IMG/VR virus record: IMGVR_UViG_3300033073_000489
Location: 18,781-82,780 of that record
Reading direction: 5' to 3' (one strand)
From: a virus
Lineage: Duplodnaviria; Caudoviricetes
Length of the DNA stretch: 64,000 nt
The notes under the pieces were generated by a model. It ran no database searches, was not told the origin of the DNA, and saw only the letters and a list, made by a program, of their open reading frames with translations. Of the stretch, positions 7,118 to 63,128 are shown piece by piece. The first letter of the stretch is position 1. Every line of letters starts with the position of its first letter. A program made the position numbers and the translations under genes.

Positions 7118-7657
7118 TTACTCTAGTTCTTTAAAGGCTTCAGTAGAGCGCTTTGCAGCCAACTCTTGAATCCTTTGATTTTCTTTTGCGCGGCGCAATA
7201 CGTTTGCATCACCAGTTGGCAGGGCTAGCAATACATAAGCACGATATTTGTTACCTTCGGTGATGATTTTCTTTTCGGAAACTTCAACACCTGTGATGTC
7301 AACTTCCTTACATGAAGACCGTGACACGGACTCACTAAGGGTAGTTGATTCTGTTTTGTAAGTTTTCATACGCTGGCTAGCAGTTCCGCCTGCAGCCATA
7401 CACAACTTGTCATATGCATCTTGTCGTGCAATTTTAAAAGCCATAGAATAGTCCATAGCAGAGCCTGTTCCTGCAGAATATACTGCACTCTTGCTAGTAG
7501 GAACTTCTAGCATCCATTTAGGTGCTTTGTCAATTACACGCTCAACATAACGTTCTTGACGTTCACGTTCAGCATCTGCACGTTTTGCATACGGATCAGT
7601 AGAACCGCAAGCGGCAAGCATTGCAACAACAGGAATTAGTGTTAGAATCTTTTTCAT
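7118..7657 (-). CDS. Lipoprotein (LPP20-like)
   Basis: Lipobox LAAC; APKWM and AVYSAGTG segments. Confidence 0.7.
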   Translation of the reverse strand: MKKILTLIPVVAMLAACGSTDPYAKRADAERERQERYVERVIDKAPKWMLEVPTSKSAVYSAGTGSAMDYSMAFKIARQDAYDKLCMAAGGTASQRMKTYKTESTTLSESVSRSSCKEVDITGVEVSEKKIITEGNKYRAYVLLALPTGDANVLRRAKENQRIQELAAKRSTEAFKELE

Positions 7658-7779
7658 TATTTTCCACCCATCTTTTCTTTAGTCCAGTCAGCGGCTGACG
7701 AAATGTCTTTGCCTACACCTGACACAGTTGAACATGCGGCCAAGAAACTAGCCAGAATTAAAACTGCAACTATTTTCAT
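7657..7779 (-). CDS. Entericidin EcnA/B-like lipoprotein (40 aa)
   Basis: MKIVAVLILASFLAACSTVSGVGKDISSAADWTKEKMGGK: lipobox plus TVSGVGKDI. Confidence 0.75.
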   Translation of the reverse strand: MKIVAVLILASFLAACSTVSGVGKDISSAADWTKEKMGGK

Positions 7780-7916
7780 TTTGCCATCTCCACAGATTGT
7801 GTTTTAACTGTGTCGACGCCTTTGTCCATAAGTTTAGCAACACCGTTAACTACGCCGGAAAAACCGACTGTAGCAACTGCAATGCCAAAGATGGTGCCTG
7901 CGATAAATGCCTTCAT
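7776..7916 (-). CDS. Small membrane protein (46 aa)
   Basis: MKAFIAGTIFGIAVATVGFSG..., ATGA overlap with next gene. Confidence 0.6.
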   Translation of the reverse strand: MKAFIAGTIFGIAVATVGFSGVVNGVAKLMDKGVDTVKTQSVEMAK

Positions 7917-7948
7917 TGTGTGCCTCTATGTGTGTTGAACATGTGTAT

Positions 7949-7977
7949 ATTATAACTGAACTCAGTTCAATCGTCAA
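7949..7977 (-). promoter_or_regulatory. sigma70-type promoter
   Basis: TTGACG-N17-TATAAT; spacer holds inverted repeat TGAACT-C-AGTTCA. Confidence 0.8.
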
Positions 7978-7994
7978 TACTCAAGTTAGCCAAA

Positions 7995-34081: not shown

Positions 34082-34103
34082 AATAGGACCCGGAGGTCCT
34101 ATT
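34082..34103. terminator. Bidirectional terminator
   Basis: AATAGGACC-CGGA-GGTCCTATT at the island's right border. Confidence 0.8.
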
Positions 34104-34566
34104 ATTCTGCATACCAAATTTCTGTAAAACCTTCGTCTTCGGTTGGCATTTCAAACCCAGCAATCATACTAGCAATAACGTGCTCTGGAATTTCTTTCCC
34201 AGGACGACTCCACAGTCTACGAATCAACTCCTTATGCTCTGGTGTCTTGAACACGACGGCAATATGCTCGTAGTTTGGCAGAGTGTTAAACTTACGCTTA
34301 CGGCTAGCAATAGTTGTTGAAGTTTGATCCCAGATTACATCTAAGTTGTTTGCTTGACAGACCAACGCTTGGTTTGCCATTAACCGAACAGCGATTGGCA
34401 TGTATTCAGTAAACACTTCAGAGTAAGTCTTACCTTGCTCCTTAGCGTATGCTTCTACAAAGTTGTCAGTAGACACTACAGGAATATCCTTAGCCCAGTC
34501 TTGGTTGTTAATCCAAGTAGACTTTCCAGATCCTGGAACACCGACTAATTGATAACACTTTGGCAT
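34102..34566 (-). CDS. P-loop kinase, polynucleotide-kinase-like (AAA_33)
   Basis: GVPGSGKST, WDQT...RK. Confidence 0.8.
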   Translation of the reverse strand: MPKCYQLVGVPGSGKSTWINNQDWAKDIPVVSTDNFVEAYAKEQGKTYSEVFTEYMPIAVRLMANQALVCQANNLDVIWDQTSTTIASRKRKFNTLPNYEHIAVVFKTPEHKELIRRLWSRPGKEIPEHVIASMIAGFEMPTEDEGFTEIWYAE

Positions 34567-34739
34567 TTTTGTAACCTTTCTATTTCATCAGCTGCCTCTT
34601 CCAGCAGGTCTGCTATACGATCTCTTGCACCTTCTTCAACACTCTTACGGCCAGGTATCTGTCGTCTAATCTCCGCCCGTTTGCGCAAACGGAAGACTAG
34701 ACTTTGTTCAGATACTGGCAAGTGACTTTCATCTTTCAT
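34545..34739 (-). CDS. Small hypothetical protein
   Basis: Start MKDES; LVFRLRKRAEIRRQI...DLLEEAADEI. Confidence 0.65.
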   Translation of the reverse strand: MKDESHLPVSEQSLVFRLRKRAEIRRQIPGRKSVEEGARDRIADLLEEAADEIERLQKCQSVIN

Positions 34740-35635
34740 GCTAATTGTTCCCTTACCCATGCTAGACGAGCTTGCTCGTCCATTGCTGTGTATTCTACTA
34801 TGTTAGCACGGATTGCGTCAACCAGTGGATAGTATTCTTCATCTAGATTGTGCTTAATGTCCTTGTTCAAGTCTACTAACTTATCTGTGCGTGGATTGCG
34901 AGCAACCCACTTTGAAGTTAGGTAGTATGGTGACTTGATCTTAGCACTCACACCTTCGTCAGTATAGAATACATAACCTTCATGCTTACATTCCTTAGCC
35001 AACTGTTCCAAACGTGCCATGTTAGTTGTAACACTTTCTGCCCAGAAACAGTTTAGGCTACGAGCAAAGTCCATTAGGATGTATGGGTCATGTAAGATCT
35101 TAGAGCCGAACACGTTTTCGCGCCAGCCTAACAAATACATACCCGACTTTTCTGGAATGATATGTGGATCACTTGGATGCACACATTCAAACATAAAAGT
35201 CACTCCCTTGCACTCTGCGTTGCCTAGTGCCATTTGCCAGTCAGCCCAGCACATATGAGTTAGCATCATTTCTTTTGCCATTGCTACATATGGGCTGTCT
35301 GTGCTACCAGTAGTAGACACTAGGATGTCTCCGTTGTGCCAAGTCATAGCAACCATGAACCCGTTTATCTTACGGAACGCTGTAACCTTAGTATCGCCGG
35401 ATAGCTTTGGAGCTTCCTTTTCAATACCGTAGTTATAGATCTTTGTGAATGGATATGTAACTAGGTTAAAATCCTTGTCCACAATAGACCCACGACATTC
35501 TGCAATGTAGTCGTTCCACAAGTTGTCGTAGAATACCTTCTTCTTATACTTTAATACAAAGAGCCCGTCACTACATTCCTTCATGTTAACCAATCCAGAA
35601 GTAGCAACGTAGTTCTTTAACTCATCCTTAAACAT
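34736..35635 (-). CDS. RNA ligase (T4 Rnl1-like)
   Basis: ECRG, PFTKIYNY, motif I RKINGFM, FECVHP, HEGYV, KIKSPYY. Confidence 0.85.
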   Translation of the reverse strand: MFKDELKNYVATSGLVNMKECSDGLFVLKYKKKVFYDNLWNDYIAECRGSIVDKDFNLVTYPFTKIYNYGIEKEAPKLSGDTKVTAFRKINGFMVAMTWHNGDILVSTTGSTDSPYVAMAKEMMLTHMCWADWQMALGNAECKGVTFMFECVHPSDPHIIPEKSGMYLLGWRENVFGSKILHDPYILMDFARSLNCFWAESVTTNMARLEQLAKECKHEGYVFYTDEGVSAKIKSPYYLTSKWVARNPRTDKLVDLNKDIKHNLDEEYYPLVDAIRANIVEYTAMDEQARLAWVREQLA

Positions 35636-36176
35636 GATGACCCTTAATTTCTTTGTCCTTGATCATACGTATAGCACGATCCAAGCCAATTACAATTTCT
35701 CCAGTTGAGTCCATACCCACATCTAATGCGCGATACTTTTCCAACCCGCTTACACCACCGTGCAAGTGTCCATGAAAATGCAAAGCTCCTCTGTGCATTT
35801 GATCCCACTCAGCGATTGGATAGTGGAACATAACAATCTTGTGACCGTCATACGTCATATCCAAATACTTGTGAACTTCCTTAAATGCATTACGGAAAGT
35901 TACATCCATCAATGTCTTGCGATCGTGGTTACCTTCAATCAAAATCTTTGTGCCGTTCAAACGATTAATCATTCTACCAGCATCGCTACCTGACATGAAC
36001 GCTACATCACCTAAGATGTAAACTGTGTCTTCGGGTTGAACCTTGTGGTTCCATTCCTCAACCATAGCATTATTCATGTAGGTAACATCGTCATTAAAAC
36101 GTGCTCGCGTCTGTGGGCAGAACTTCATAATGTTCTTATGCCCAAAGTGCAAGTCACTTGTAATCCATGTTTTCAT
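35628..36176 (-). CDS. Calcineurin-like phosphoesterase
   Basis: SDLHFGH, LGD, GNHD, HYP, HGHLH, DVG. Confidence 0.9.
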   Translation of the reverse strand: MKTWITSDLHFGHKNIMKFCPQTRARFNDDVTYMNNAMVEEWNHKVQPEDTVYILGDVAFMSGSDAGRMINRLNGTKILIEGNHDRKTLMDVTFRNAFKEVHKYLDMTYDGHKIVMFHYPIAEWDQMHRGALHFHGHLHGGVSGLEKYRALDVGMDSTGEIVIGLDRAIRMIKDKEIKGHHV

Positions 36177-36374
36177 TTATTCACCTACAAATTCTTTTAC
36201 CCATTCAAAATGAGTTTCGCTGGCCTTAACCCACTTAAACTGCTCTCGACGTCTGTTGATCTTGTCGAAGTCAAAGCAAATAAAGATCCAGCCCTTTTCT
36301 TCTGAGAACTGCACAGATTCAGCAACCCGAACAATCTGCACAATCCTGTCCTTAAACTTTGCTACGATCATCAT
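36177..36374 (-). CDS. Hypothetical protein
   Basis: 65-aa ORF in the operon. Confidence 0.6.
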   Translation of the reverse strand: MMIVAKFKDRIVQIVRVAESVQFSEEKGWIFICFDFDKINRRREQFKWVKASETHFEWVKEFVGE

Positions 36375-36383
36375 ACTGGCTCC

Positions 36384-36665
36384 TTACATGGACCAGTAAG
36401 TCTCCGAAGCTGGATTGCAACACCAAGGAGTGTCGCGATCAATTTGGACATCTTTACCGGTCATCAAATTCTTAACTGTTTTCATTGTTGGGAAATATTC
36501 AAAACGATAGCCCAACTTTGCAGGATACAAACTAAACAATTCGGCGCATTCACGCTTCATGCTCGCTTCATCGCGGGCTTGCCAAACTGTAGTAGAAACA
36601 AGACGCTCACCTCGCTTAGTGCGCTTGTCCAATTTGTAGATATACAATGTCCAATCTTGTTTCAT
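36384..36665 (-). CDS. Hypothetical phage protein
   Basis: YKLDKRTKRGER...TPWCCNPASETYWSM. Confidence 0.7.
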   Translation of the reverse strand: MKQDWTLYIYKLDKRTKRGERLVSTTVWQARDEASMKRECAELFSLYPAKLGYRFEYFPTMKTVKNLMTGKDVQIDRDTPWCCNPASETYWSM

Positions 36666-36696
36666 TTCGCTCTCCTATGTGTTTCAGTATATGTAT

Positions 36697-36725
36697 ATTA
36701 TATGCTCAAACGGCTAAGGCGTCAA
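36697..36725 (-). promoter_or_regulatory. sigma70-type promoter of the RNA-repair operon
   Basis: TTGACG-N17-TATAAT. Confidence 0.8.
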
Positions 36726-36754
36726 CCAGAGAGTTGTTGTATTAATACAACACT

Positions 36755-36946
36755 TTACCAATCTTCGACACCGCTAATCTCAATGTTAAACGAGCCCTGT
36801 AGCCCGCCAGCATCAAGTGGAAATGTCATCGTAGTGACGCTTCCAATTCCACTGCTAGAATCTTGGTCTAGTTCAAAAATTTCTACTTCTGGAAACTTAT
36901 CCAAAACTTCTTGAATTTTGTCGATGTCTTTTCTAGTTAAGTGCAT
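36755..36946 (-). CDS. Hypothetical protein
   Basis: 63 aa, DSSSGIGS. Confidence 0.65.
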   Translation of the reverse strand: MHLTRKDIDKIQEVLDKFPEVEIFELDQDSSSGIGSVTTMTFPLDAGGLQGSFNIEISGVEDW

Positions 36947-37413
36947 CAGTCTATACTCCTAAATGTGCGCCAATCATCAAGATTGGGCTTTTCGTTTTCG
37001 TCGTATGTCCAGCCCAATGCCTTCATCATACGATGCTTGACTAACAAGTTAGGGCTACGGAAACGACCAGTATCCTGGAAGCCCATCATGACACCAACTT
37101 CACAAACTGCACCCGAACGGCAGATACCTGCAAAGCAATGAACAACAACGTTCATGTGGTTGTCCTTTGCGTGTTGCAACAGGCGAACTAGCTCGTCGGC
37201 TTGTTCTTGACTGCAACGCATTTCTTCGTCGTCTACGTGATCATTCTTTTCTACATCCAAGAATTCAAAGTTATGAATTTCCTTGAACTTGTGCGCAGGA
37301 GTAGGACGCCAGCTTGCAGGATCAGTAATACTGATCAGCATACTGTTCTCCCCTGCTTCGTGATGGAACCGCTTTGGAATGTCATCAGCGGCGACATTTT
37401 CAATCCATGGCAT
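36946..37413 (-). CDS. Cys-based protein/tyrosine phosphatase-like protein
   Basis: VHCFAGICRS (CX5R). Confidence 0.8.
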   Translation of the reverse strand: MPWIENVAADDIPKRFHHEAGENSMLISITDPASWRPTPAHKFKEIHNFEFLDVEKNDHVDDEEMRCSQEQADELVRLLQHAKDNHMNVVVHCFAGICRSGAVCEVGVMMGFQDTGRFRSPNLLVKHRMMKALGWTYDENEKPNLDDWRTFRSID

Positions 37414-37508: not shown

Positions 37509-38918
37509 TTAGCTAAGGTCGTAGCGTGGGACCATTACAGTCTTAAGCATGATACCTTCTGGAGTGAATTGGTCCAGATCAGCGGACAGCAAAGCTGTCA
37601 TGATGCTTGGGCTAAATCCGCTAACTAGAGCGGCTCCAGACTTGTCTGACTTAACAGGAACGTTACCGCTACTGTTCAAGTTCCAGAACACAACTTGTGG
37701 TGCGGTATAACCCGCATCAGCATACTTGCGTTCGATCATTTCCATTGCGCTGTCGTCGAAACGAGCGCATTGGTTGAACTGCATGTCTGACAAGATTAGC
37801 AACATCTTTGGCATGTCGCTAGCTGGGACGTTACCCTTAACTGCAACGCTTAGGATCTTGTCCATAGCGGCATGCAAGTTAGTGCTCATTTCCCAGTTGC
37901 TGGTCGACATTTGTTCGACCTTTTGAACAATGTTACCCTTTAGAGTAACAAGTTGTGGCTTGCTAGAGAAAGTCAAGAATGTGTCCTTGAACACGCCCTT
38001 GTTCTTGTCTGCAAGATACAAACCTAGTCCAACCGCTACATCCAAACAACGAACAGTCGAACCTGGAACAGATGTTGTCATCGAACCAGATACGTCAACT
38101 AGAGGCAGGATACTTGCGTCACCTACGTAGTTAGGCAGAGCGTCCCATTGTGCGATCACATGGTCTGTTTCTGTCTTGTTCAGCTTGGTGTAGCTGTGTG
38201 CAATGCCCTTCAACACATCATGTGGGTAGATTGCTGAGGCGTTAACCTTAACAGTCTTATCACCACTTGTCAACTTGGCCACATACTCTGCGAACGCAGG
38301 TGTGTGACGGTTGAATGCCTTCTTGTAGTTGCGAGCAGCCACAGAAGGAACGTGTGAGAAGTTGATGTTATCCCAGTCGTTGGCACACATTTGTGTTTCA
38401 ACAACCTTGGTAAGTGCCACAAGGCTCTTACGATATTGCTTTGGAGTCATTCCAAAGAACGCACGGATTTCCTGTGCGATTTGACCCTTACGAGGAGTCC
38501 ACTTTGCAGCCAAGCCATTACGAGCACGAAGTGCATCGCCTAGCATAGTGTAAGCGGCGCTCTTAAGAGCAGGAGTAGAGAAGACAAAGATGTCGTCCCA
38601 ACGTCCCACTTCAGGCGCCTTCTTTAGCAAAGCCAAAGCGGCGTCTGGGTCACGCTTTTCCAAGTGAACAAGAATGTCACGGAAAAGTTGACGTTCACCC
38701 GCACCACCACGGACATCACGTGCCCATTGTGCGATGCGTAGAGCAACGTCTTGGTTTTCAACATAAGCGGCTGTAAAGTCGCCTACGATGTTCTTACCAC
38801 GGCTTGCGCCAATGTTGTAAAACAGGTCAACTGTAGCCTTGGCTGTTGACTTACGTGCCTTCATACCGTTAGCGGTGCGGGCTTCTTGATTTGCTACTGC
38901 GTTTACAAATGCGTTCAT
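37509..38918 (-). CDS. DUF2828 / TROVE(Ro60)-like protein with vWA domain
   Basis: RDVRGGAGER, WDD, AAKWTPR, vWA MIDAS DVSGSM, ILSDMQF, VFWNL, VSGFS; Ro60 relationship is inferred. Confidence 0.8.
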   Translation of the reverse strand: MNAFVNAVANQEARTANGMKARKSTAKATVDLFYNIGASRGKNIVGDFTAAYVENQDVALRIAQWARDVRGGAGERQLFRDILVHLEKRDPDAALALLKKAPEVGRWDDIFVFSTPALKSAAYTMLGDALRARNGLAAKWTPRKGQIAQEIRAFFGMTPKQYRKSLVALTKVVETQMCANDWDNINFSHVPSVAARNYKKAFNRHTPAFAEYVAKLTSGDKTVKVNASAIYPHDVLKGIAHSYTKLNKTETDHVIAQWDALPNYVGDASILPLVDVSGSMTTSVPGSTVRCLDVAVGLGLYLADKNKGVFKDTFLTFSSKPQLVTLKGNIVQKVEQMSTSNWEMSTNLHAAMDKILSVAVKGNVPASDMPKMLLILSDMQFNQCARFDDSAMEMIERKYADAGYTAPQVVFWNLNSSGNVPVKSDKSGAALVSGFSPSIMTALLSADLDQFTPEGIMLKTVMVPRYDLS

Positions 38919-38931
38919 TTTAATTACCTTT

Positions 38932-38988
38932 CAGAATGTGTTTTTTTTTCGATATGCTTGAAAATTTAAAGTTGCTGTTAACATTCTA
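38932..38988 (-). ncRNA. CAGCAA-scaffold RNA copy A (5' UTR of TROVE-like gene)
   Basis: AGAAUGU-UAA-CAGCAA...ACAUUCUG directly followed by AAAGG SD and AUG. Confidence 0.7.
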
Positions 38989-38997
38989 TGTTTCTAG

Positions 38998-39236
38998 CAG
39001 GATGAGCGGAACAGTTTTTATTTTCTGGTTGGCCCCATCCCCTGTATATTGGTTCAGTTCCCCAACCCTAGCTGTCCTTGTGTCTGCGACAGCGCATATA
39101 TGTCTTTCCATAAGTCAACAGTTCCATTAGCGTTATGGTTTATACATTTCTGTATTGCCACTACAGCCGTTCCACGGGCCGCCGTCTACTGCATGAACGG
39201 TTTCAGTATAAAGTTAAAGTTGCTGTAATCATCCTA
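38998..39236 (-). ncRNA. CAGCAA-scaffold RNA copy B (long, GGA-rich insert)
   Basis: AGGAUGA-UUA-CAGCAA...UCAUCCUG. Confidence 0.75.
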
Positions 39237-39243
39237 TGATTAA

Positions 39244-39408
39244 CAGGATCGTTGTTGACTGCTTTTATTAGACTCAGGCCATCACTCTGAGCTTGTTGGT
39301 CTATTTCAATAGCAACCTTCAACGTCTCCAGGCGAACCTTTTGACTCCAGCCGACTACCATAGGGTCCAACGATCCATAGTAATATGAATGTTGCTGATA
39401 CGATCCTA
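39244..39408 (-). ncRNA. CAGCAA-scaffold RNA copy C
   Basis: AGGAUCGU-AU-CAGCAA...ACGAUCCUG. Confidence 0.75.
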
Positions 39409-39469: not shown

Positions 39470-39493
39470 GCCTTTTGGCTAAACTGAATAAAA

Positions 39494-39607
39494 CAGGATA
39501 CTATTCTTTGACGAATGCTCTACCTAATGAGCTATTTTTCCCTAGCGGAAAAAGATGGAATCGAACCACCTACCTATCGTTTGGATAGTTTTGCTGTGAG
39601 TATCCTA
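39494..39607 (-). ncRNA. CAGCAA-scaffold RNA copy D, YrlA-like permuted tRNA mimic
   Basis: AGGAUACU/AGUAUCCU encloses a hairpin, T arm GGUGG-UUCGAUU-CCAUC, loop-closed acceptor stem UUUUUCC/GGAAAAA and D arm GCUC-AUUAGGUA-GAGC. Confidence 0.85.
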
Positions 39608-40552: not shown

Positions 40553-40651
40553 TGGTCCCTCTGGCAGGACTCGAACCTGCACACTCAGGCTTATCTGGCC
40601 TGTGCTTTGGCGAGGTATAAGCTCGCGTCTTTACCATTAAGCTACAGAGGG
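40553..40651 (-). tRNA. tRNA-Ile(UAU) with 29-nt extra arm
   Basis: GCGAG-CUUAUAC-CUCGC; extra arm AGGC-CAGAUAA-GCCU. Confidence 0.75.
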
Positions 40652-40740: not shown

Positions 40741-41334
40741 TTAGACTAGGTTAGGACCACATACCCAACCGACTAGCGTTTTTCTTACCCCTTTAGTTAC
40801 AGGAGTAACGCTGTGCGGTATGTATGATGGAAACAAAACCATCTCACCTTTTTGCAAGTTAGCAGAATACGGCTCTTTGCTAACATGAAATAATAAATCA
40901 CCGCCTTCGAACTCGCTAGGATCATTTAACAATATGCTAAAAGATATCTTGCGATTGAAGCCATTTGTATTTCTTAATTGTGTATCACAATGAATATCGT
41001 AAAACCCAAGATTTGAACTTTCGTAAACCGAGTATTGCAACACTTCGGTATAGTTTAAACTGTATCTAAAATGTGTTGTGTTAACACTTAACACAACGTC
41101 AAATACCTTTGTGTATAATCCAGAAAACACTTCCATGTCATGTAAGAACATAACACTGGACCTACGATAGTCTGTGTCTACAGGGTCGTTATCAGTTCTA
41201 ACTTCCGCCTCTACTAGTTGGTCCGGAAACGCACTCGCGTAATTTTCAATAACTTTGATCTCTTCATCGGACAATACATTTGGGATCTTATAATCCCATC
41301 CGATAATTTGATCAGGTGGTTCGAACCAAATCAT
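40741..41334 (-). CDS. 2OG-Fe(II) oxygenase (PKHD/P4H-like)
   Basis: YDIHCD, RKISFS, FEGGDL, FPSYIPHSVTPV..G.RK.LVGW. Confidence 0.9.
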   Translation of the reverse strand: MIWFEPPDQIIGWDYKIPNVLSDEEIKVIENYASAFPDQLVEAEVRTDNDPVDTDYRRSSVMFLHDMEVFSGLYTKVFDVVLSVNTTHFRYSLNYTEVLQYSVYESSNLGFYDIHCDTQLRNTNGFNRKISFSILLNDPSEFEGGDLLFHVSKEPYSANLQKGEMVLFPSYIPHSVTPVTKGVRKTLVGWVCGPNLV

Positions 41335-41921
41335 AAAGAATCCTTATATATAAATTTAATGTTAAACGATATTGATATACGTGTGTTATCAGTATTGTTC
41401 ATCATAACTGCATGTTCTAAAAACGACGGAAATAACAACAACTTACCTTGTAGCGGTTTATGTGCCACATACTTGTTTAATAGAATTGAACTTGATATAT
41501 GTGCAGACGACGGGGACTTAAATTTAATATCACCATCTTCAACAGTTGATTGATAATAGTAGCAACCAGAGATATCTGAGAATGTATGCGAGTGATAATT
41601 TTGATATCCACCACGATCGGAAAAATTAATCCACGAGTCTGTTATTTTAAAATCAATAACAGGTAGCTTCGGGTTAACTTCTGCAAAATATTGTATCATA
41701 TGATTACGAATTGCTTCTTTAAAGATAGGAGTTTGTTCAACAAAGTTCCTAGGAGCATTATAATCAAATGATGACTTAACAGTATCATCCCACGGATTCT
41801 TTAAACTGTCGATGTCTAATGAACTAATAGCTGTAGCAATTTCTGATTGCACAAGTTTATATTCTTCGTTCTTAACTATATCAGAATAGATTGGAATTGG
41901 AAATAAATTTTCTACAGGCAC
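41331..41921 (-). CDS. Putative 2OG-Fe(II) oxygenase
   Basis: LFPIPI, HSH, ISGCYY, LFPSFLEHAV, RISISFN. Confidence 0.85.
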   Translation of the reverse strand: MPVENLFPIPIYSDIVKNEEYKLVQSEIATAISSLDIDSLKNPWDDTVKSSFDYNAPRNFVEQTPIFKEAIRNHMIQYFAEVNPKLPVIDFKITDSWINFSDRGGYQNYHSHTFSDISGCYYYQSTVEDGDIKFKSPSSAHISSSILLNKYVAHKPLQGKLLLFPSFLEHAVMMNNTDNTRISISFNIKFIYKDSL

Positions 41922-45488: not shown

Positions 45489-45597
45489 CAGGATGATGTA
45501 GTATTGCCGGGAATCGAACCCCAATTTCAACTACGGTCCCCAATTGGACGGCCTGGCAGAACAATGGCGCCAAAAAGTGTTTGCTGGATTCATCCTA
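45489..45597 (-). ncRNA. CAGCAA-scaffold RNA copy E (partial tRNA-like insert)
   Basis: AGGAUGA-AUC-CAGCAA...UCAUCCUG; insert has GGG-UUCGAUU-CCC. Confidence 0.75.
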
Positions 45598-45929: not shown

Positions 45930-46018
45930 TGGAGGAGGGATAGTAGAATCGAACTCTAACCGCTTTCGCAGTCCATCTGTTTTCAAGACAGTGCTGGGCC
46001 CAGCCCAGATAACCCTCC
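45930..46018 (-). tRNA. Atypical tRNA-Ser(UGA)
   Basis: Loop CUUGAAA, long extra arm, CUGGG/CCCAG D stem, bulged T stem, U73. Confidence 0.65.
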
Positions 46019-46597: not shown

Positions 46598-46656
46598 CAG
46601 GATGCATTTACTTTTTTCCGAATAAAAGAAATGTAATGTTTGCTGTTAGCATCCTA
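46598..46656 (-). ncRNA. CAGCAA-scaffold RNA copy F (short)
   Basis: AGGAUGC-UAA-CAGCAA...GCAUCCUG. Confidence 0.75.
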
Positions 46657-47217: not shown

Positions 47218-47298
47218 ATATGGAAACACACTAGCCTGCAGGACTACTATTAACTCCACGGGTTCGCCGCTGTTAATAGGTAATGTGTTTTCATATGG
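47216..47298 (-). ncRNA. Structured spacer pairing the upstream tRNA CCA with the downstream tRNA 5' GG
   Basis: CCAUAUG-A-AAACACA / UGUGUUU-C-CAUAUGG plus CUAUUAAC/GUUAAUAG hairpin. Confidence 0.65.
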
Positions 47299-47370
47299 TC
47301 GGAGCACGGGGATTCGAACCCCGAACTGGCGGATTAAAAGTCCGCTGTGATACCATTTCACCATACTCCG
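47296..47370 (-). tRNA. tRNA-Lys(UUU)
   Basis: Loop CUUUUAA. Confidence 0.92.
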
Positions 47371-47590: not shown

Positions 47591-47666
47591 TGGTGCCGCC
47601 TCTAGGGATCGAACCTAGTTCCTCGGTGCTTCAAACCGGTGCTATGACCACATCAGCTAAAGCGGC
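47591..47666 (-). tRNA. tRNA-Phe(GAA)
   Basis: Loop UUGAAGC. Confidence 0.85.
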
Positions 47667-47674
47667 AAATAAAA

Positions 47675-47738
47675 CAGGATGTATTTTTACGGTTTAGATT
47701 AAAAGTCTAATGTATAAATTTTTGCTGTTAACATCCTA
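47675..47738 (-). ncRNA. CAGCAA-scaffold RNA copy G carrying a Lys(UUU)-type anticodon stem-loop
   Basis: AGGAUGU-UAA-CAGCAA...UUAGA-CUUUUAA-UCUAA...ACAUCCUG. Confidence 0.8.
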
Positions 47739-47743
47739 AAACT

Positions 47744-47817
47744 TGGTGCTCCATCGAGGAATCGAACCACGATTGCCGGACTACAAAACCGGAGTATTAC
47801 CATTATACTAATAGAGC
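47744..47817 (-). tRNA. tRNA-Thr(UGU) variant
   Basis: Loop UUUGUAG. Confidence 0.85.
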
Positions 47818-48247: not shown

Positions 48248-48371
48248 CAGGATAGAATTTAACATAGTGCTACCGTTACACCAAACACCGCCTAAGCGAT
48301 GCCGCGGAGTCGAACCGCTCCCTTACTTTTCAAGAGTAGTAGTTGTTATTAATTTTGCTGTTACTATCCTA
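48248..48371 (-). ncRNA. CAGCAA-scaffold RNA copy H, YrlA-like permuted tRNA mimic
   Basis: AGGAUAG/CUAUCCU encloses UACU-CUUGAAA-AGUA, T arm GCGG-UUCGACU-CCGC, closed acceptor GGCAUCGC-UUAG-GCGGUGUU and D arm GUG-UAACGGUAG-CAC. Confidence 0.85.
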
Positions 48372-54976: not shown

Positions 54977-55051
54977 TGGTGCGCTAGACAGGATTCGAAC
55001 CTGCTACACGGCGGTTTAGAGTCGCCTACCCTTCCAACGGGAGACTAGCGC
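54977..55051 (-). tRNA. Amber suppressor tRNA (anticodon CUA)
   Basis: GCGCUAG/CUAGCGC-ACCA, GGCGA-CUCUAAA-CCGCC, canonical T arm. Confidence 0.85.
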
Positions 55052-56031: not shown

Positions 56032-58203
56032 TTAAATACCTTTCTGTGTGTCAACCATGTTAACATATTCGGCAACTTCTGCGTTAGGGGCACTACGCAA
56101 GTAGGCCAGCAACGGATACCGTTTGTCAATGGTTGCACATTCATCAACAAACTTTTGAACAAAAGCCTCTGGGCTAAAGTTAACGCCGGGGGCATAACGA
56201 TTGCACAAACGCTTCAAACTGTGTTCGCTATAACGAATCTTTTCGTAGCCCTTAAATTGATTAACCAATTTCAAATATGGGCTATTAGGATTAGCAATAG
56301 CGTCAACGATATTAGCAGTATAACTGAGCAAGTTAAAATTGTCAACAGCCTGCATTACCAAACTCATCATTAATTTATGATCAACGACTTTCAATTGGCT
56401 TGCAATGTGAGTTTCAATGTTAACCCAATTCTTCTTGTTCTTGATAGCGTTGATATCGCTCTTACGAACACCGTAGATAGTCTGCTTCAGACCAGTAACA
56501 CCGCACTCCTTCAAATCGTTGTAAAACTCTTTGACATTAGACATGCTGTAGTTACTTTGAACTGTGTAGCCGCTCAAAGGCAAGTAGTAGAAAGTTTCTT
56601 GGTCGCTGAATGTGTCCAGCTTGCCTGCATCTTTCCAAACCATTTCTTTTTCACGATAGTATCCACCGTAGCCACGTTCTTGCATTACCAAGATTGTAAC
56701 GTTCTTGCCCAAGCCAGAATCAACACGATCTTTCTTCAAAAGCGCACTCGCCACATGACGTGTATTTTCAGGTGGGTTAGACAGCATCTTAAAGAATGCC
56801 TTTGTGTTTACAGGCTTAGTCCGGTCATATGCTTCGATAACAAACACTGATTGGCTATATGGGCCGTTAGGATCAGCAACTGTGTTTCTCCAGTGATACT
56901 TAGCACGTTCCAACGCACCAACATTTGTATCGTTTACAACAAAATTAATACCTGCTTGAACAGGAATAACCCAAGAATAAATTGTCTTCACAGGAGTTGT
57001 GGAACGATCGTGTTCAACACACTCTTTCAAAGAAGAACAAGCGGCATTACCGCGGCTCTTTGTAAAGCCACGAATAATCATATTGTATTTGGTCTTCAGC
57101 ATGTCAACATCCAAGTTGAAACGCTTCAAAGCATTATAGCCACCGTGCTTGCCAGGTGCATACAATTCAAACTTAGTGTCCGCAATGTATTTGTTTACTG
57201 CCGCTTGCCACAAGTATGAGTCGCCTTTCTTTTGCAAGAACAACGCACGATCCCACAGGTTAGTGATAGCATCAGCTTCTTTGGCCAACACAGTAGTCAA
57301 AGCAACATTAAGGGCTTCTAGCTTCTTCTTGATAGCAGCCACAGTTTCTGGAATATAGCTCAAGCCTTCACGTGACGCTTGGAAGTCCAATTCGCCAATG
57401 TCAAAGTGCATTTCCAAACCACAGTTCAACAAGTTGCGAACATGCGCCAATGTTTTGTCTGCGTCTGGGATTTGAATAGGGTATGCAATATTGCCCATAA
57501 TAGCTGTGCTACTACGGGCGCCTTTGTAGGAATGCACACCCGGAATAATATTCTTGCTTTCGTATTCAACATCTGCAAATTTAAAATCTGCATTGCCAGA
57601 AATAACAGGGCGCAATGTAAAGTAAGTGTAAACTTGGCGAGCTTCTTGACGGAACTTGTCAAAGTCGTAACGATCGTTGACGCTGAACTTAACTTCAACG
57701 CCAGCAGGCTCATTGGTCGCTTCAGTCATCATTTGTGCAATACTAGGCACACCTTGCTCGTTAATAAAAGCGGTGTAGATGCCTTTTACGCCATCTTTGA
57801 TAGCGGTTACTGTGAAGTTATCCGTGTAAGAAAATGGTGACTTTGAGCCAAGACCAAGAGCACCAATAAAATCATTGCTACCAGTTTTAGTGGATTCAAA
57901 ATAAGTTGTATAAATGTTTGTAACTTGTTCATGAGAAAGGCCTGTGCCATAGTCGCGAATGGAGAACCAAGGTTCCAACGTATTTGGAAGATGGACATCA
58001 AATGGAGTATCTTGTTTGCCTGCGGCAACGTGTGAGTCAACTGCATTACAAGACAGTTCACGAACGATAGCACGGATCTTGTTAGCATACAAGCCCGAAC
58101 TCAAAATGTTAAATGCTTTCGCAGAATTGCGAATACGGAACTCGCCGATTTCACCAACGTTAGAAACAATAGCTTCGTTAACTGGAGCATTGTTGAGAAT
58201 CAT
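56032..58203 (-). CDS. rIIA-like protein (GHKL ATPase N-domain)
   Basis: RELSCNAVDSH, IRDYGTGLS, STK, GALGLGSKS. Confidence 0.88.
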   Translation of the reverse strand: MILNNAPVNEAIVSNVGEIGEFRIRNSAKAFNILSSGLYANKIRAIVRELSCNAVDSHVAAGKQDTPFDVHLPNTLEPWFSIRDYGTGLSHEQVTNIYTTYFESTKTGSNDFIGALGLGSKSPFSYTDNFTVTAIKDGVKGIYTAFINEQGVPSIAQMMTEATNEPAGVEVKFSVNDRYDFDKFRQEARQVYTYFTLRPVISGNADFKFADVEYESKNIIPGVHSYKGARSSTAIMGNIAYPIQIPDADKTLAHVRNLLNCGLEMHFDIGELDFQASREGLSYIPETVAAIKKKLEALNVALTTVLAKEADAITNLWDRALFLQKKGDSYLWQAAVNKYIADTKFELYAPGKHGGYNALKRFNLDVDMLKTKYNMIIRGFTKSRGNAACSSLKECVEHDRSTTPVKTIYSWVIPVQAGINFVVNDTNVGALERAKYHWRNTVADPNGPYSQSVFVIEAYDRTKPVNTKAFFKMLSNPPENTRHVASALLKKDRVDSGLGKNVTILVMQERGYGGYYREKEMVWKDAGKLDTFSDQETFYYLPLSGYTVQSNYSMSNVKEFYNDLKECGVTGLKQTIYGVRKSDINAIKNKKNWVNIETHIASQLKVVDHKLMMSLVMQAVDNFNLLSYTANIVDAIANPNSPYLKLVNQFKGYEKIRYSEHSLKRLCNRYAPGVNFSPEAFVQKFVDECATIDKRYPLLAYLRSAPNAEVAEYVNMVDTQKGI

Positions 58204-59928: not shown

Positions 59929-61329
59929 TTATTTGCGAGCGTTAGCTCGAACTTGATCGAAAGTAATTTCGTTTACAAGTTTACCATTACGGAAAACTTC
60001 TTGCAATGCAGGAACCCATCCACCGATGCCTTTGTCAGTCCAACCAGTTGGAGCAGTGACACCGCTAGCAAACTCACCACCACTGTTAGTCCAAAGTTGG
60101 ACACGACCAGCTTTTGACTTCTTGCCAGAGTCAGTAACAGGATCTTTTTGCACATCGACCCATTTACCGTTAATTTCCGCACTCGAGCATTTCATTGCAA
60201 ACTTTTGAGTATCGCGATCTACTTGTTGCAGTAGTGCGCCGCCCATACCAAATGCAATGTTATCGGCACTATAGCCATACACTTGGAATGAACCAAGGAT
60301 ACAACGAATAGTGTGTTCGTTAACACCGTCACCTTGGATAAGGCGAACGTTGTTAAGGACCTTGAAGCCTTTGCTGTTAACAGTAGATCCAAACTTTTGG
60401 TCTAAGATTTGAACAAGTTGTCGACATACAACGTCAGGATCCCCAGAGTCTGGACGGATGACAACAGTAGCGCCACTATCAATAACCTTCTGCTTGAGTT
60501 CTTCACCCCAGAGTTTCGAGGCAGCGTTGAAGATATCATAACTATCGCTAACCACTGCAACGATACTACCAGGCTTAGCAAATTGAGCAAGCATATTTTC
60601 ATAGGCTTTTACCTCACCATCACGGCCCCAGCTAGTAATTGTTGAGTGTTCGGCGGCAGGGATAGAAAAGCCGCTAACCCCAGCATCATAGTATTCGCGA
60701 GCATACAGAACACCAGAAATAGTATCACTACCCATGAAGTTAACCAAGTGTGCCGCACCTCCGATAGCCGCTGATTCCAAGCTAGAAACACCACGAGCAC
60801 CGAAATCGTGCAACTTAAAGTCAATAAGGGAAGGGTCACCTGTTTTCTCCAATGCGTCTAAGATAACCTTGCGGATTGTGTAACTCTGTGTTGCCACAGT
60901 AGTTGGATACCACACGGCACGAAGCAAGGCAGTTTCGAGCCAGGTAGTTAGCCAGAAGCATTCTGGATCAGTGTTTTCAATCGTTGCCAGGACTTGCTTG
61001 ACTGGGACAACTGTGCCTTCAGGGACGGCTCTGATAACAACTGGGAGGTATCCAGAGTGCTTGTCAAGAATGTATTGCCATCCTGCTCTGTTGAAAGGCT
61101 CACCGTGTGCGGTAAGGATCTCGTCAGCAATGTCGATATCGGATTGCGTGATAGGATCGAGCAAGTATTCCTTGATAAAGGCCTGTAGTCCGAACATGAC
61201 AGTTTTGTCATATCGACCGCCTCGCGATTCAATGTAAGAATATACACCAGTAGTTCCTGCTGGATATTGTTTGAACATCGACACTTTGTATGAGTCGGTG
61301 TTGAGAATAATGTTTTTTGCTAGTTTCAT
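59929..61329 (-). CDS. nadV: Nicotinamide phosphoribosyltransferase (NAMPT)
   Basis: TDSYKVS, LHDFGARG, PAAEHS, SDSYD, IRPDSGDP, QGDG, FGMGG. Confidence 0.93.
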   Translation of the reverse strand: MKLAKNIILNTDSYKVSMFKQYPAGTTGVYSYIESRGGRYDKTVMFGLQAFIKEYLLDPITQSDIDIADEILTAHGEPFNRAGWQYILDKHSGYLPVVIRAVPEGTVVPVKQVLATIENTDPECFWLTTWLETALLRAVWYPTTVATQSYTIRKVILDALEKTGDPSLIDFKLHDFGARGVSSLESAAIGGAAHLVNFMGSDTISGVLYAREYYDAGVSGFSIPAAEHSTITSWGRDGEVKAYENMLAQFAKPGSIVAVVSDSYDIFNAASKLWGEELKQKVIDSGATVVIRPDSGDPDVVCRQLVQILDQKFGSTVNSKGFKVLNNVRLIQGDGVNEHTIRCILGSFQVYGYSADNIAFGMGGALLQQVDRDTQKFAMKCSSAEINGKWVDVQKDPVTDSGKKSKAGRVQLWTNSGGEFASGVTAPTGWTDKGIGGWVPALQEVFRNGKLVNEITFDQVRANARK

Positions 61330-62090: not shown

Positions 62091-63128
62091 TTATGATCCT
62101 AAGAAGTGTTGAATAATTTCGTAGTGGTCTTCAAAGCATTCCTCGCTTCTAACTTCAGCGATAGGAACCCACCGTGCTTTTTCTGCGTCATCGCTACCTT
62201 TTACCTTAGGCAACTCACCGTCGGGAAGTTGAATGTAAAAGGCATGCGTAATTATACGTCCTCTAGGACTTCTGTCAATTGCATCGAACACTTTGCTACG
62301 GACAATACTGCCACGAAGCACAGGAGCAGGAACTTTGATCATCGTTTCTTCACGCAACTCACGAATGGCCGCATCTTCAACTGACTTGTCAGTATTAGCG
62401 TTTACATATCCGCCTGGCAATGCCCACAGGCCTCGACCTGGCTCAGCACGGCGCTTGATAAGCAAGATGTGTCCGCTTTGAATCACAACCGCATCGGCAG
62501 TTGAGAAGATTGGCGGGTAGGGCAAACTTGCATATTGTTTCTTGTAAGTTTCCACAAACTCGCGTTCGCGAATGATTTGTTCGTATTCTGGAGTAGATTT
62601 GAATCGTTCAAGGAAATCAAAAGTGCTTTCTGGAACTACGCCTTTAATGAACTTCATGTTGACATCACGCTTGAAGAACAAGTCACGAATGTTAACGGCT
62701 GACAGGAACTCGATAAGTTCTACATCTTCATATCCCCATTGTGGGAACATATCAAGATAGAAACTACTGTCGTCTTTTTTGTGACCGATGATGCCGACCT
62801 TCATATTTTCTTTGGGACCATAATTGTCCCAAGTGTGTTTGGCTACAAGTTGCTGGACGCGAACTGCCCATGCTTGATCGTTGTAGATAGTATCTGTATT
62901 GGCTTCGATGCTGATCTGCATACTAAGACCTGCTGTAGCGGCACGGATCATATCACGGCGCTCGGCAAAAGTAAATGGGTTCTTATAAGTGCGTGGTTGG
63001 CAAGAACTACCAACGACAATAACCAACTTATCGCACAGGGCCGTGGCACGTTTGATAATCTCTAAGTGAGCACTATGAATTGGTTGAAAACGTCCAATGA
63101 GGACGAGGGTATCGTATTTTTTAGACAT
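62091..63128 (-). CDS. nadM: Bifunctional NMN adenylyltransferase / Nudix ADP-ribose hydrolase
   Basis: GRFQPIHSAH, NPFTFAER, LSAVNIR, Nudix GGYV...AAIRELREET, SDDA. Confidence 0.92.
   Translation of the reverse strand: MSKKYDTLVLIGRFQPIHSAHLEIIKRATALCDKLVIVVGSSCQPRTYKNPFTFAERRDMIRAATAGLSMQISIEANTDTIYNDQAWAVRVQQLVAKHTWDNYGPKENMKVGIIGHKKDDSSFYLDMFPQWGYEDVELIEFLSAVNIRDLFFKRDVNMKFIKGVVPESTFDFLERFKSTPEYEQIIREREFVETYKKQYASLPYPPIFSTADAVVIQSGHILLIKRRAEPGRGLWALPGGYVNANTDKSVEDAAIRELREETMIKVPAPVLRGSIVRSKVFDAIDRSPRGRIITHAFYIQLPDGELPKVKGSDDAEKARWVPIAEVRSEECFEDHYEIIQHFLGS

What the first reader, a model, noticed from the sequence alone, without database searches (positions are those of the whole stretch)
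47675..47738. Free-standing tRNA-Lys(UUU) anticodon stem-loop displayed on the scaffold (copy G)
Seen: UUAGA-CUUUUAA-UCUAA, a 5-bp stem with a 7-nt loop identical to the loop of tRNA-Lys(UUU) at 47296. Established: PrrC and RloC-type nucleases target the tRNA-Lys(UUU) anticodon loop. Inference: a minimal anti-nuclease bait.
Basis: partly seen in the sequence, partly recalled or inferred. Interest (0 to 1): 0.7.

Follow-up and report, generated by a model that had tools for sequence, protein, structure and literature searches.

The report
Anticodon-arm mimic on phage Y-RNA scaffold
A jumbo phage encodes, inside its tRNA operon, a roughly 75-base small RNA whose base is a handle for a Ro60-like protein and whose tip copies a tRNA anticodon arm; this tip is conserved in distant phages and sits beside tRNA-repair genes, so it probably belongs to the fight over host enzymes that cut tRNAs.

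Summary
On the minus strand, 47710-47694 forms UUAGA-CUUUUAA-UCUAA, with the same loop as tRNA-Lys(UUU). It caps a 62-nt element (47737-47676) with a 7-bp basal helix and the motif UAACAGCAA, one of eight such scaffolds here.

The hairpin is not chance. Among 41 unique homologues collected without regard to stem or loop, all keep a 5-bp stem and 7-nt loop. The stems change by compensatory swaps, while C32, U33, A37 and A38 never change.

It is not Lys-specific. The "anticodon" is UUU, UCU, GCU or UGU, nearly always NNU-AA. Similar mimics occur in a cyanophage and in mycobacteriophages.

The scaffold is Y-RNA-like. Its neighbour gene (37509-38918, DUF2828/DUF7788) folds as Ro60. It is followed by a phosphatase, a phosphoesterase, an Rnl1-like RNA ligase and a polynucleotide kinase.

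My reading is a Ro-like ribonucleoprotein that displays an anticodon arm during tRNA-damage conflicts. A nuclease bait is plausible but untested, and a tethering role is the main rival.

Phage Ro/Y RNAs are known. I found no description of this CAGCAA class or its free-standing anticodon arm.

The scan noted the same kind of element on other genomes (e1-5370044, e1-5809768, e1-5809753).

The parts
47667..47743 (-). Probable span of the small RNA (copy G): from the base after the CCA end of tRNA-Thr(UGU) to the base before tRNA-Phe
   Evidence: tRNA coordinates and sequence. The ends are inferred from tRNA processing and were not measured.
47731..47737 (-). Basal helix, 5' strand AGGAUGU
   Evidence: Pairs with 47676-47682. 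100% of cells are paired in 18 homologues, with compensatory changes at the inner pairs.
47722..47730 (-). Conserved unpaired motif UAACAGCAA, the presumed protein handle
   Evidence: CAGCAA is invariant in alignment A2. It is also conserved in Felixounavirus, cyanophage, Listeria phage and mycobacteriophage elements beside the Ro-like gene.
47712..47714 (-). Middle 3-bp helix, 5' strand UAC
   Evidence: Pairs with GUA at 47688-47690. UAC/GUA changes to UGC/GCA in 4 of 18 homologues.
47694..47710 (-). Anticodon-arm mimic UUAGA-CUUUUAA-UCUAA (5-bp stem, 7-nt loop; loop at 47699-47705)
   Evidence: Three of five stem pairs covary. In the alignment of 18 loop positions 32, 33, 36, 37 and 38 are invariant; in the wider set of 41 32, 33, 37 and 38 are invariant and 36 is U in 40.
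47688..47690 (-). Middle 3-bp helix, 3' strand GUA
47676..47682 (-). Basal helix, 3' strand ACAUCCU, followed by GUUUUAUUU
   Evidence: The G after the helix is invariant.
47296..47370 (-). Phage tRNA-Lys(UUU), whose anticodon loop CUUUUAA is copied (stem GCGGA/UCCGC differs)
37509..38918 (-). Ro60-like protein gene (DUF2828 + DUF7788), the presumed partner of the scaffold
   Evidence: Pfam. The AlphaFold model has pLDDT 92.5. The 13 best Foldseek PDB hits are all Ro60/TROVE, best E 5e-8 with TM 0.66. A scaffold element lies 14-350 nt upstream in most of the 36 related loci that hold the gene.
38933..38987 (-). Sibling scaffold (mini, AGAAU variant) in the 5' leader of the Ro-like gene
38999..39235 (-). 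Sibling scaffold with a long insert
39245..39407 (-). Sibling scaffold with a long insert
39495..39606 (-). Sibling scaffold carrying T-arm and D-arm (YrlA-like)
   Evidence: Rfam YrlA 31.3 bits, E 6e-5, below the gathering score of 69.
45490..45596 (-). Sibling scaffold with a T-arm-like insert
46599..46655 (-). Sibling mini scaffold with a 5-bp/7-nt hairpin and loop UUUAUUC (not anticodon-like at position 37)
   Evidence: 51.4 bits with model R1.
48249..48370 (-). Sibling scaffold carrying a whole permuted tRNA-like body, including a CUUGAAA loop equal to that of tRNA-Ser(UGA)
   Evidence: Sequence; 39.7 bits with R1.
36946..37413 (-). Cysteine (DSP/PTP-like) phosphatase gene directly after the Ro-like gene
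   Evidence: Pfam PF00782, PF22785 and PF00102. Synteny recurs in 21 of 53 related loci.
35628..36176 (-). Phosphoesterase gene
   Evidence: phrog_547, E 5e-53; synteny.
34736..35635 (-). T4 Rnl1-like RNA ligase gene
   Evidence: phrog_562, E 3e-50. T4 RNA ligase 1 structure 2C5U, E 1.2e-5 over residues 32-278.
34102..34566 (-). P-loop polynucleotide-kinase-like gene
   Evidence: Pfam AAA_33, E 8e-18; phrog_505 polynucleotide kinase.

Best explanation
Copy G is a small Y-RNA-like non-coding RNA of about 75 nt. It is transcribed with the phage tRNA operon and released when the flanking tRNAs (Thr-UGU upstream, Phe downstream) are processed. Its 7-bp basal helix and the unpaired UAACAGCAA motif form the handle by which the phage's Ro60-like protein (37509-38918) holds it. 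Its tip is a free-standing imitation of a tRNA anticodon arm: a 5-bp stem and a 7-nt loop with C32, U33, U36, A37 and A38, here with the Lys triplet UUU. The particle works in the conflict over tRNA anticodon-loop cleavage. It offers host enzymes that recognise anticodon loops, most likely anticodon nucleases, a look-alike that competes with real tRNAs. It does this alongside the healing and sealing enzymes encoded directly downstream (phosphatase, phosphoesterase, Rnl1-like ligase, kinase). What is shown: the structure, its conservation and covariation, the Ro60 fold of the neighbouring protein, and the gene linkage. What is inferred: binding of the RNA by that protein (my odds about 0.8), true anticodon-arm mimicry (about 0.7), and the bait function itself (about 0.3).
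For: The structure is supported by covariation: 98% of cells are paired in 18 homologues against about 35% when partners are slid, and 6 pairs change on both sides. In a collection blind to stem and loop, 41 of 41 unique homologues have a perfect 5-bp/7-nt hairpin. There are four stem versions related by compensatory swaps. The loops are CUUUUAA 26, CUUCUAA 11, CUGCUAA 2, CUUGUAA 1 and CUUAAAA 1. Among 101 unique mini elements found by the scaffold alone, 64 have a perfect 5/7 hairpin, against 9.4 in shuffles. Of those 64 loops, 39 show Y32-U33-R37, against 7% expected from composition. The same module occurs in distant cultured phages: cyanophage BUCT-ZZ01 has UUCAA-CUUUUAC-UUGAA, mycobacteriophage Finnry has UUUCA-CUGCUAA-UGAAA, and LeBron has UUUCA-AUGGUAA-UGAAA. 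Model R1 scores these elements at 25-50 bits. Sibling scaffolds carry T and D arms, so tRNA parts are what this scaffold displays. For the partner, the adjacent protein folds as Ro60, and scaffold RNAs lie next to its gene in most of the 36 related loci that hold it and in five cultured phage groups. For the context, an Rnl1-like ligase, a kinase and two phosphatases follow on the same strand, and this order recurs in relatives. A Listeria phage has RtcB after its copy of the gene. From the literature: PrrC's main recognition cues map to the tRNA-Lys anticodon stem-loop and it cleaves isolated stem-loop analogues (PMC1950546). AriB of PARIS cuts Lys-UUU, Thr-UGU and Asn-GUU tRNAs, which share U36-A-A-U39, without needing modifications (PMC12409363). 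The mimic family keeps that UAAU. A Ro60-like protein of Felixounavirus Bas63 counters the Ppl defence (bioRxiv 10.1101/2024.10.10.617714). Some contigs carry two or three mimics with different triplets, which looks like a panel.
Against: The triplet is not fixed, so no single nuclease specificity is implied. Loops with A36 (GUA, GCA, UGA, GGA) also occur, and AU-richness alone favours W36-A37-A38. AriB also needs D-loop contacts that a bare anticodon arm lacks. The stems are AU-rich even in high-GC mycobacteriophages, so they do not copy host tRNA stems. Felixounavirus and Listeria phage minis carry other loops, so the anticodon-like tip is one of several tips rather than the defining one. 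Copy G lies 8.8 kb from the Ro-like gene. A stoichiometric decoy must be abundant, and abundance is unknown.
Confidence: 0.4

Rival explanations
1. Adaptor rather than bait. As in the Ro/Y RNA/PNPase machine, the scaffold binds the Ro-like ring and the tip tethers it to another protein. That protein could be host PNPase or a tRNA-binding enzyme, or the phage's own ligase or kinase, so that damaged or structured RNAs are degraded or repaired. The anticodon-arm shape is then the docking surface and not a substrate look-alike.
For: Y RNAs act as tethers in Deinococcus and Salmonella, and the Ro60 and Y-like RNAs of phage phiLo assemble with host PNPase (PMC4201824; PMC12135203). The repair genes sit directly downstream. 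Several different tips on one scaffold fit several different partners.
Against: Non-specific KH/S1 binding by PNPase would not explain invariant C32, U33, A37 and A38 together with free positions 34-35. No partner has been identified.
Confidence: 0.27
2. The conserved loop is part of the Ro-like protein's own binding site, or a folding or processing element of the operon. Its resemblance to an anticodon loop is then a by-product of AU-rich sequence and of descent from tRNA-bearing scaffolds, with no interaction with anticodon-recognising enzymes.
For: Other mini subfamilies have equally conserved loops that are not anticodon-like, such as YUUAUYC in copy F and 9-nt loops in the leader copy. 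The AU-rich interiors (A 47%, U 30%) favour U and A at positions 36-38. The elements lie between tRNAs, where processing signals are needed.
Against: The Y32-U33-R37 signature is enriched about 8-fold over composition, and C at position 32 is seen in 41 of 64 loops although C is only 14% of interiors. The 5/7 geometry is kept across phages of Actinobacteria, Cyanobacteria and the window's lineage.
Confidence: 0.18
3. Damage sensor. The hairpin is a sacrificial substrate whose cleavage by a host nuclease changes the particle, for example by freeing the Ro-like protein from its RNAs or from the scaffold in its own mRNA leader, and so switches on the repair genes.
For: A mini scaffold overlaps the ribosome-binding region of the Ro-like gene in at least 12 loci. 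In Salmonella, damaged tRNA fragments induce the rsr-yrlBA-rtcBA operon; this rests on the title and abstract of PMC7790460 and on my own knowledge of the field.
Against: This is purely inferential. No regulator or switch structure was found.
Confidence: 0.08
4. Chance hairpin or decaying tRNA-Lys fragment with no function.
For: The folding z-score is only -1.8.
Against: Conservation with compensatory changes is seen in dozens of contigs and in distant cultured phages. The stem is unrelated to that of the phage tRNA-Lys. Only 0.08 such hairpins are expected per strand.
Confidence: 0.02

Closest known systems
Bacterial and phage Y RNAs (YrlA/YrlB, Rfam RF02553) with Ro60/Rsr
   Same: Both are small RNAs encoded beside a ring-shaped Ro60-fold protein on the same strand. 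The 5' and 3' ends pair into a basal helix next to a conserved unpaired motif. A distal module imitates tRNA, and there are several RNAs per locus, including short ones without a tRNA body.
   Different: The protein belongs to DUF2828/DUF7788 and does not match Pfam TROVE. The motif is UNACAGCAA, not GNCGAAN0-1G. The RNAs are scattered through a tRNA array. The tip is an anticodon arm, whereas YrlA mimics the T arm, D arm and acceptor and has the Ro helix where the anticodon stem would be.
Thermus phage phiLo Ro60 with Yrl1/Yrl2 (PDB 9KOP, 9L5Y)
   Same: It is a phage-encoded Ro60 with Y-like RNAs directly upstream, and it is a structural hit of the window's protein.
   Different: phiLo has a canonical TROVE protein and a CGAA motif. 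No anticodon-arm tip or tRNA-array setting is reported.
T4 Pnk + Rnl1 repair of PrrC-cut tRNA-Lys; phage tRNA variants that escape AriB (PARIS)
   Same: The theme is the same: phages countering cleavage of anticodon loops. An Rnl1-like ligase and a kinase are encoded next to the Ro-like gene, and the phage carries its own tRNA set.
   Different: Those counter-measures either repair tRNAs or replace them. None of the papers I searched and read describes a non-tRNA anticodon-arm look-alike on a protein scaffold.
Felixounavirus Bas63 gp130 (Ro60-like, counters Ppl) and abundant RNAs upstream of the Rsr-like gene of Listeria phage CKA15
   Same: The protein family appears to be the same, judged by synteny and annotation. 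The gene sits at the tRNA stretch, and the authors suspected unrecognised Y RNAs. I found CAGCAA scaffolds at exactly these places in the relatives pinkbiff and LMTA-94.
   Different: Neither paper defines the RNAs or their motif. The minis of those two phages do not carry canonical anticodon-like loops. I did not verify orthology of gp130 or CKA15_055 by sequence.

Membership tests
YrlA / bacterial Y RNA (Rfam RF02553; Chen et al. 2014) | Scores at or above the Rfam gathering threshold (69 bits) | tested here: not met
   Copy G gets no YrlA hit even at E up to 10. The best sibling (39491-39607) scores 31.3 bits.
YrlA / bacterial Y RNA (Rfam RF02553; Chen et al. 2014) | GNCGAAN0-1G motif near the 5' end | tested here: not met
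   The conserved motif is UNACAGCAA after an AGGAUnn helix strand. The defining motif is taken from PMC4201824.
YrlA / bacterial Y RNA (Rfam RF02553; Chen et al. 2014) | tRNA-like domain with T arm and D arm | tested here: not met
   Copy G has only a 17-nt anticodon-arm-like hairpin. Siblings at 39495-39606 and 48249-48370 do have T and D arms.
YrlA / bacterial Y RNA (Rfam RF02553; Chen et al. 2014) | Encoded within about 4 kb of a Ro60 orthologue on the same strand | tested here: inconclusive
   Copy G is on the same strand but 8.8 kb away. Four siblings lie within 0.7 kb of the gene. The protein has the Ro60 fold but no Pfam TROVE match.
Y RNA in the broad sense (Ro60-bound small RNA) | Physical binding to the Ro60-type protein | not testable with these tools
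   Only genomic linkage is available.
tRNA | Cloverleaf recognised by ARAGORN or Rfam RF00005 | tested here: not met
   ARAGORN does not call it. The only tRNA match is a local 10.6-bit hit, E = 10, to model positions 25-42, which is the anticodon arm.
Canonical anticodon stem-loop | 5-bp stem and 7-nt loop with pyrimidine 32, U33 and purine 37 | tested here: met
   The hairpin is UUAGA-CUUUUAA-UCUAA. The signature is kept in 41 of 41 homologues of the subfamily.
PrrC/RloC-type tRNA-Lys substrate | Anticodon UUU conserved | tested here: not met
   UUU is present in copy G, but homologues carry UCU (11 of 41), GCU, UGU or UAA, and GCU or GGU in mycobacteriophages.
PrrC/RloC-type tRNA-Lys substrate | Wobble and position-37 modifications (mnm5s2U34, t6A37) that tune cleavage | not testable with these tools
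   This needs mass spectrometry of the RNA. The role of modifications is described in PMC1950546.
AriB (PARIS) target tRNAs | U36-A37-A38-U39 near the cut site C40|A41 | tested here: met
   Copy G reads UAAUCU. The commonest homologue reads UAAUCA, identical to the E. coli site quoted in PMC12409363.
AriB (PARIS) target tRNAs | D-loop contacts (U16-U17) with the second monomer | tested here: not met
   Copy G has no D arm. The requirement is described.

The most novel reading that the evidence does not exclude
Phages from several bacterial phyla share a modular Ro-like ribonucleoprotein whose RNAs display separate tRNA parts. These range from whole permuted tRNAs through elbow-only forms to bare anticodon arms with exchangeable triplets. 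The anticodon-arm RNAs would be programmable decoys or capture probes for host anticodon nucleases, working with an adjacent healing-and-sealing enzyme set. Triplet switching between close relatives and panels within one genome would record an arms race with tRNA-targeting immunity.
Probability: 0.25. Interest if true: 0.85.

Novelty: new variant of a known kind. Interest (0 to 1): 0.68.

Why it matters
tRNA anticodon loops are a favourite target of bacterial immunity, including PrrC, RloC, PARIS and retron effectors. The phage answers named in the papers I read are repair and replacement tRNAs. A conserved non-tRNA anticodon arm on a Ro60-type particle would be a third answer. It would also assign a concrete job to the poorly understood phage Ro/Y RNA systems.

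The protein is present in more than 700 cultured phage genomes, including Felix O1-like, P100-like, KVP40-like and cluster L mycobacteriophages. The RNAs are unannotated in those records. The idea can therefore be tested directly in standard laboratory phage-host pairs.

Tried and rejected
- **Family searches in the 82.8-kb record:** Pfam TROVE, RtcB and Rnl2-type ligase gave no hit. The record is only about 23% of a genome.
- **Sequence search of the Ro-like protein against PDB:** this was not significant alone (E 0.04-0.1). The fold search was needed.
- **Pseudoknot between the loop U-run and the 3' A-run:** rejected by eye. Loops with C or G at position 35 show no matching change in the A-run.
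- **Mobile element with terminal inverted repeats:** rejected. The helix sequence covaries within the window and is entirely different in other phage groups while CAGCAA stays. All copies are on the tRNA strand.
- **Recent copy of the phage tRNA-Lys gene:** rejected, because the stems are unrelated.
- **Intrinsic terminator:** rejected from the sequence. The stem is AU-rich and a tRNA follows 9 nt after the element.
- **Mimicry of the host's own tRNA stem:** could not be tested because the host is unknown. It looks unlikely, since the stems stay AU-rich in mycobacteriophages.
- **Link between the mimic's triplet and neighbouring tRNAs:** none was seen.

Full report
**Setting.** The window is part of an 82.8-kb virus record that is estimated to be 23% complete, so it comes from a jumbo phage. 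Its rIIA protein is closest to that of Xanthomonas phage XacN1. Between about 39.6 and 48.9 kb the minus strand carries 42 tRNA genes (Rfam agrees). The finding lies in the 77-nt spacer between tRNA-Thr(UGU) (47744-47817) and tRNA-Phe (47591-47666).

**The observation.** Read on the minus strand, the element runs from 47737 to 47676.
- A basal helix AGGAUGU/ACAUCCU encloses the unpaired motif UAACAGCAA.
- A variable linker follows, then a 3-bp helix UAC/GUA.
- The hairpin UUAGA-CUUUUAA-UCUAA occupies 47710-47694.

The loop equals that of the phage tRNA-Lys(UUU), whose stem GCGGA/UCCGC is unrelated. On this strand of the window only these two hairpins combine a 5-bp stem with the loop CUUUUAA, against 0.08 expected. 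The predicted fold contains all three helices, but its energy is not exceptional (z = -1.8). No Rfam family matches. The only tRNA-model hit is a non-significant local match to the anticodon arm.

**The scaffold family.** The 3' half of the scaffold recurs far above chance. A looser search finds eight copies on the minus strand: three minis, two with T-arm-like inserts, one whole permuted tRNA-like body and two long ones. One copy (39491-39607) resembles Rfam YrlA, with T arm and D arm, at 31 bits. That is well below the family threshold.

A scan of viral contigs with the 5' half alone returned at least 119 loci. I parsed 194 elements from them. Where tRNAs were mapped around them, the elements lie inside tRNA arrays and on the tRNA strand.

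**Is the hairpin real?**
- In 18 homologues of copy G, 98% of cells pair, against about 35% when the partners are slid. Six pairs change on both sides, three of them in the anticodon-like stem.
- A second scan fixed only CAGCAA, ACAU and CCGUAAAA and left the hairpin free. It gave 41 unique scaffolded elements, and every one has a perfect 5-bp stem and 7-nt loop.
- The stems are UUUGA/UCAAA (19), UUAGA/UCUAA (14), UUGAA/UUCAA (5) and UUCAA/UUGAA (3).
- The loops are CUUUUAA (26), CUUCUAA (11), CUGCUAA (2), CUUGUAA (1) and CUUAAAA (1).
- So C32, U33, A37 and A38 never change. U36 and U34 almost never change. Position 35 is free.

Among 101 unique minis found through the scaffold alone, 64 have a perfect 5/7 hairpin, against 9.4 in shuffled interiors. 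Of those 64 loops, 39 carry the canonical Y32-U33-R37 signature, against 7% expected from composition. The Lys identity is not the conserved property either. The conserved property is an anticodon-loop architecture, mostly of the NNU-AA type found in tRNAs that read ANN codons.

**Reach of the module.** The neighbouring protein has homologues in 706 cultured phage records. I looked next to the gene in six of them.
- CAGCAA scaffolds are present, and unannotated in the records where I looked, in Felixounavirus pinkbiff, cyanophage BUCT-ZZ01, Listeria phage LMTA-94 and mycobacteriophages Finnry, LeBron and Bromden.
- The helix sequence differs completely between these groups, while CAGCAA is kept.
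- Anticodon-type minis recur in BUCT-ZZ01 (UUCAA-CUUUUAC-UUGAA), Finnry (UUUCA-CUGCUAA-UGAAA) and LeBron (UUUCA-AUGGUAA-UGAAA).
- The Felixounavirus and Listeria minis carry other loops.
- A covariance model built from copy G's relatives scores these distant elements at 21-50 bits.

**The partner.**
- ORF 37509-38918 matches DUF2828 and DUF7788 and PHROG 850, "RNA-binding protein". It does not match Pfam TROVE.
- With an alignment of 88 diverse relatives, AlphaFold gives a confident model with pLDDT 92.5.
- The 13 best PDB matches of that model are all Ro60 or TROVE proteins over the full length: Xenopus and human Ro60, Deinococcus Rsr and phage phiLo Ro60. The best has E 5e-8 and TM 0.66. Below these, only vWA domains match.
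- In 36 related loci that hold this gene, a scaffold element lies 14-350 nt upstream on the same strand in most of them.
- This is the genomic signature of Ro60 with its Y RNAs (PMC4201824). Binding itself is inferred.

**Context.** Directly after the Ro-like gene, on the same strand, come four genes.
- A cysteine phosphatase (36946-37413).
- A phosphoesterase (35628-36176).
- A T4 Rnl1-like RNA ligase (34736-35635), supported by phrog_562 at E 3e-50 and by PDB 2C5U at E 1e-5.
- A P-loop polynucleotide-kinase-like protein (34102-34566).

Parts of this set recur downstream of the gene in many related loci. Listeria phage LMTA-94 has an RtcB-type ligase there instead. Healing and sealing enzymes of this kind are what phage T4 uses to repair tRNA-Lys cut by PrrC. 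That is established knowledge, also summarised in the abstract of PMC2610378 listed. Comparative work has already proposed Ro/TROVE proteins with a tRNA-like partner as RNA-repair platforms in some jumbo phages (PMC7824862).

**Mechanism.** I commit to a Ro-like ribonucleoprotein that displays an anticodon arm in the conflict over tRNA cleavage.

Points for a bait role:
- PrrC reads mainly the anticodon stem-loop and cleaves isolated stem-loop analogues.
- AriB targets share U36-A-A-U39 and need no modifications. The mimic family keeps exactly that UAAU.
- A Ro60-like protein of a Felixounavirus is reported as an anti-defence factor.
- Some contigs carry panels of mimics with different triplets.

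Points against:
- There are no functional data.
- The triplet varies, and tips that are not anticodon-like share the same scaffold.
- AriB also needs the D loop.
- The stems are AU-rich regardless of host.

The main rival is a tether, as in Ro/Y RNA/PNPase machines. Lesser rivals are a protein-binding or processing hairpin that only looks like an anticodon loop, and a cleavage sensor.

**Comparison and novelty.** The element works like a Y RNA but fails the membership tests for YrlA on score, motif and tRNA-body features, and its protein lies outside Pfam TROVE. Phage Ro60/Y RNA pairs are known. Two recent papers suspected unrecognised Y RNAs beside this protein family in Felix O1-like and P100-like phages. 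In six literature searches and the papers I read, I found no description of the CAGCAA class or of a free-standing anticodon-arm tip. I therefore class it as a new variant of a known kind. Other first-stage notes of this scan recorded the same type of element on other genomes.

Noticed in passing
window 34102-37413 (-): A four-gene RNA healing-and-sealing set lies directly after the Ro-like gene: a DSP-like phosphatase, a phosphoesterase, a T4 Rnl1-like ligase and a P-loop polynucleotide kinase. The ligase is only 299 aa and aligns to residues 40-295 of T4 Rnl1, so it may lack much of Rnl1's C-terminal domain.
   Followed up: partly
window 38933-38987 (-): A mini scaffold (AGAAU variant) ends 14 nt before the start codon of the Ro-like gene, and its 3' flank GAAAGG looks like the ribosome-binding site. 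The same arrangement is conserved in at least 12 related loci, which suggests autoregulation of the protein by its own RNA handle.
   Followed up: partly
L226:7719-8555; L228:3661-3927; L229:4483-4740; L230:336-592; L231:97-370; L225:1493-1561 and 7651-7980: CAGCAA-scaffold RNAs, which I found unannotated, lie beside the DUF2828 Ro-like gene in cultured phages: Escherichia phage pinkbiff, Listeria phage LMTA-94, mycobacteriophages Finnry, LeBron and Bromden, and Synechococcus phage BUCT-ZZ01. The three Listeria elements may be the three abundant RNAs reported for phage CKA15 (PMC12282133), but I did not verify this.
   Followed up: partly
window 46599-46655 (-): Sibling mini (copy F) belongs to a separate subfamily. 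It also has a 5-bp stem and 7-nt loop, but the conserved loop YUUAUYC has a pyrimidine at position 37, so it is not anticodon-like.
   Followed up: partly
window 59929-61329 and 62091-63128 (-): A nicotinamide phosphoribosyltransferase gene and an NMN adenylyltransferase-Nudix fusion gene form an NAD salvage pair. From my own knowledge, such pairs can offset NAD-depleting defences. The rIIA gene lies next to them at 56032-58203.
   Followed up: no
window 54977-55051 (-); L225:2627-2702: A tRNA with anticodon CUA (an amber suppressor, which ARAGORN labels Pyl) lies apart from the main array. The cyanophage BUCT-ZZ01 has one too, together with a tmRNA.
   Followed up: no
window 45934-46018 and 40556-40651 (-): One RNA scores 45.3 bits with the selenocysteine tRNA model, just under its threshold of 47. 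A 96-nt stretch scores 56.8 bits as a tRNA but is not called by ARAGORN, so it is probably a tRNA with an insertion.
   Followed up: no
window 40741-41921 (-): Two 2OG-Fe(II) oxygenase genes sit inside the tRNA array. PHROG matches suggest a dCMP-deaminase-like ORF and a GDSL-like ORF nearby.
   Followed up: no
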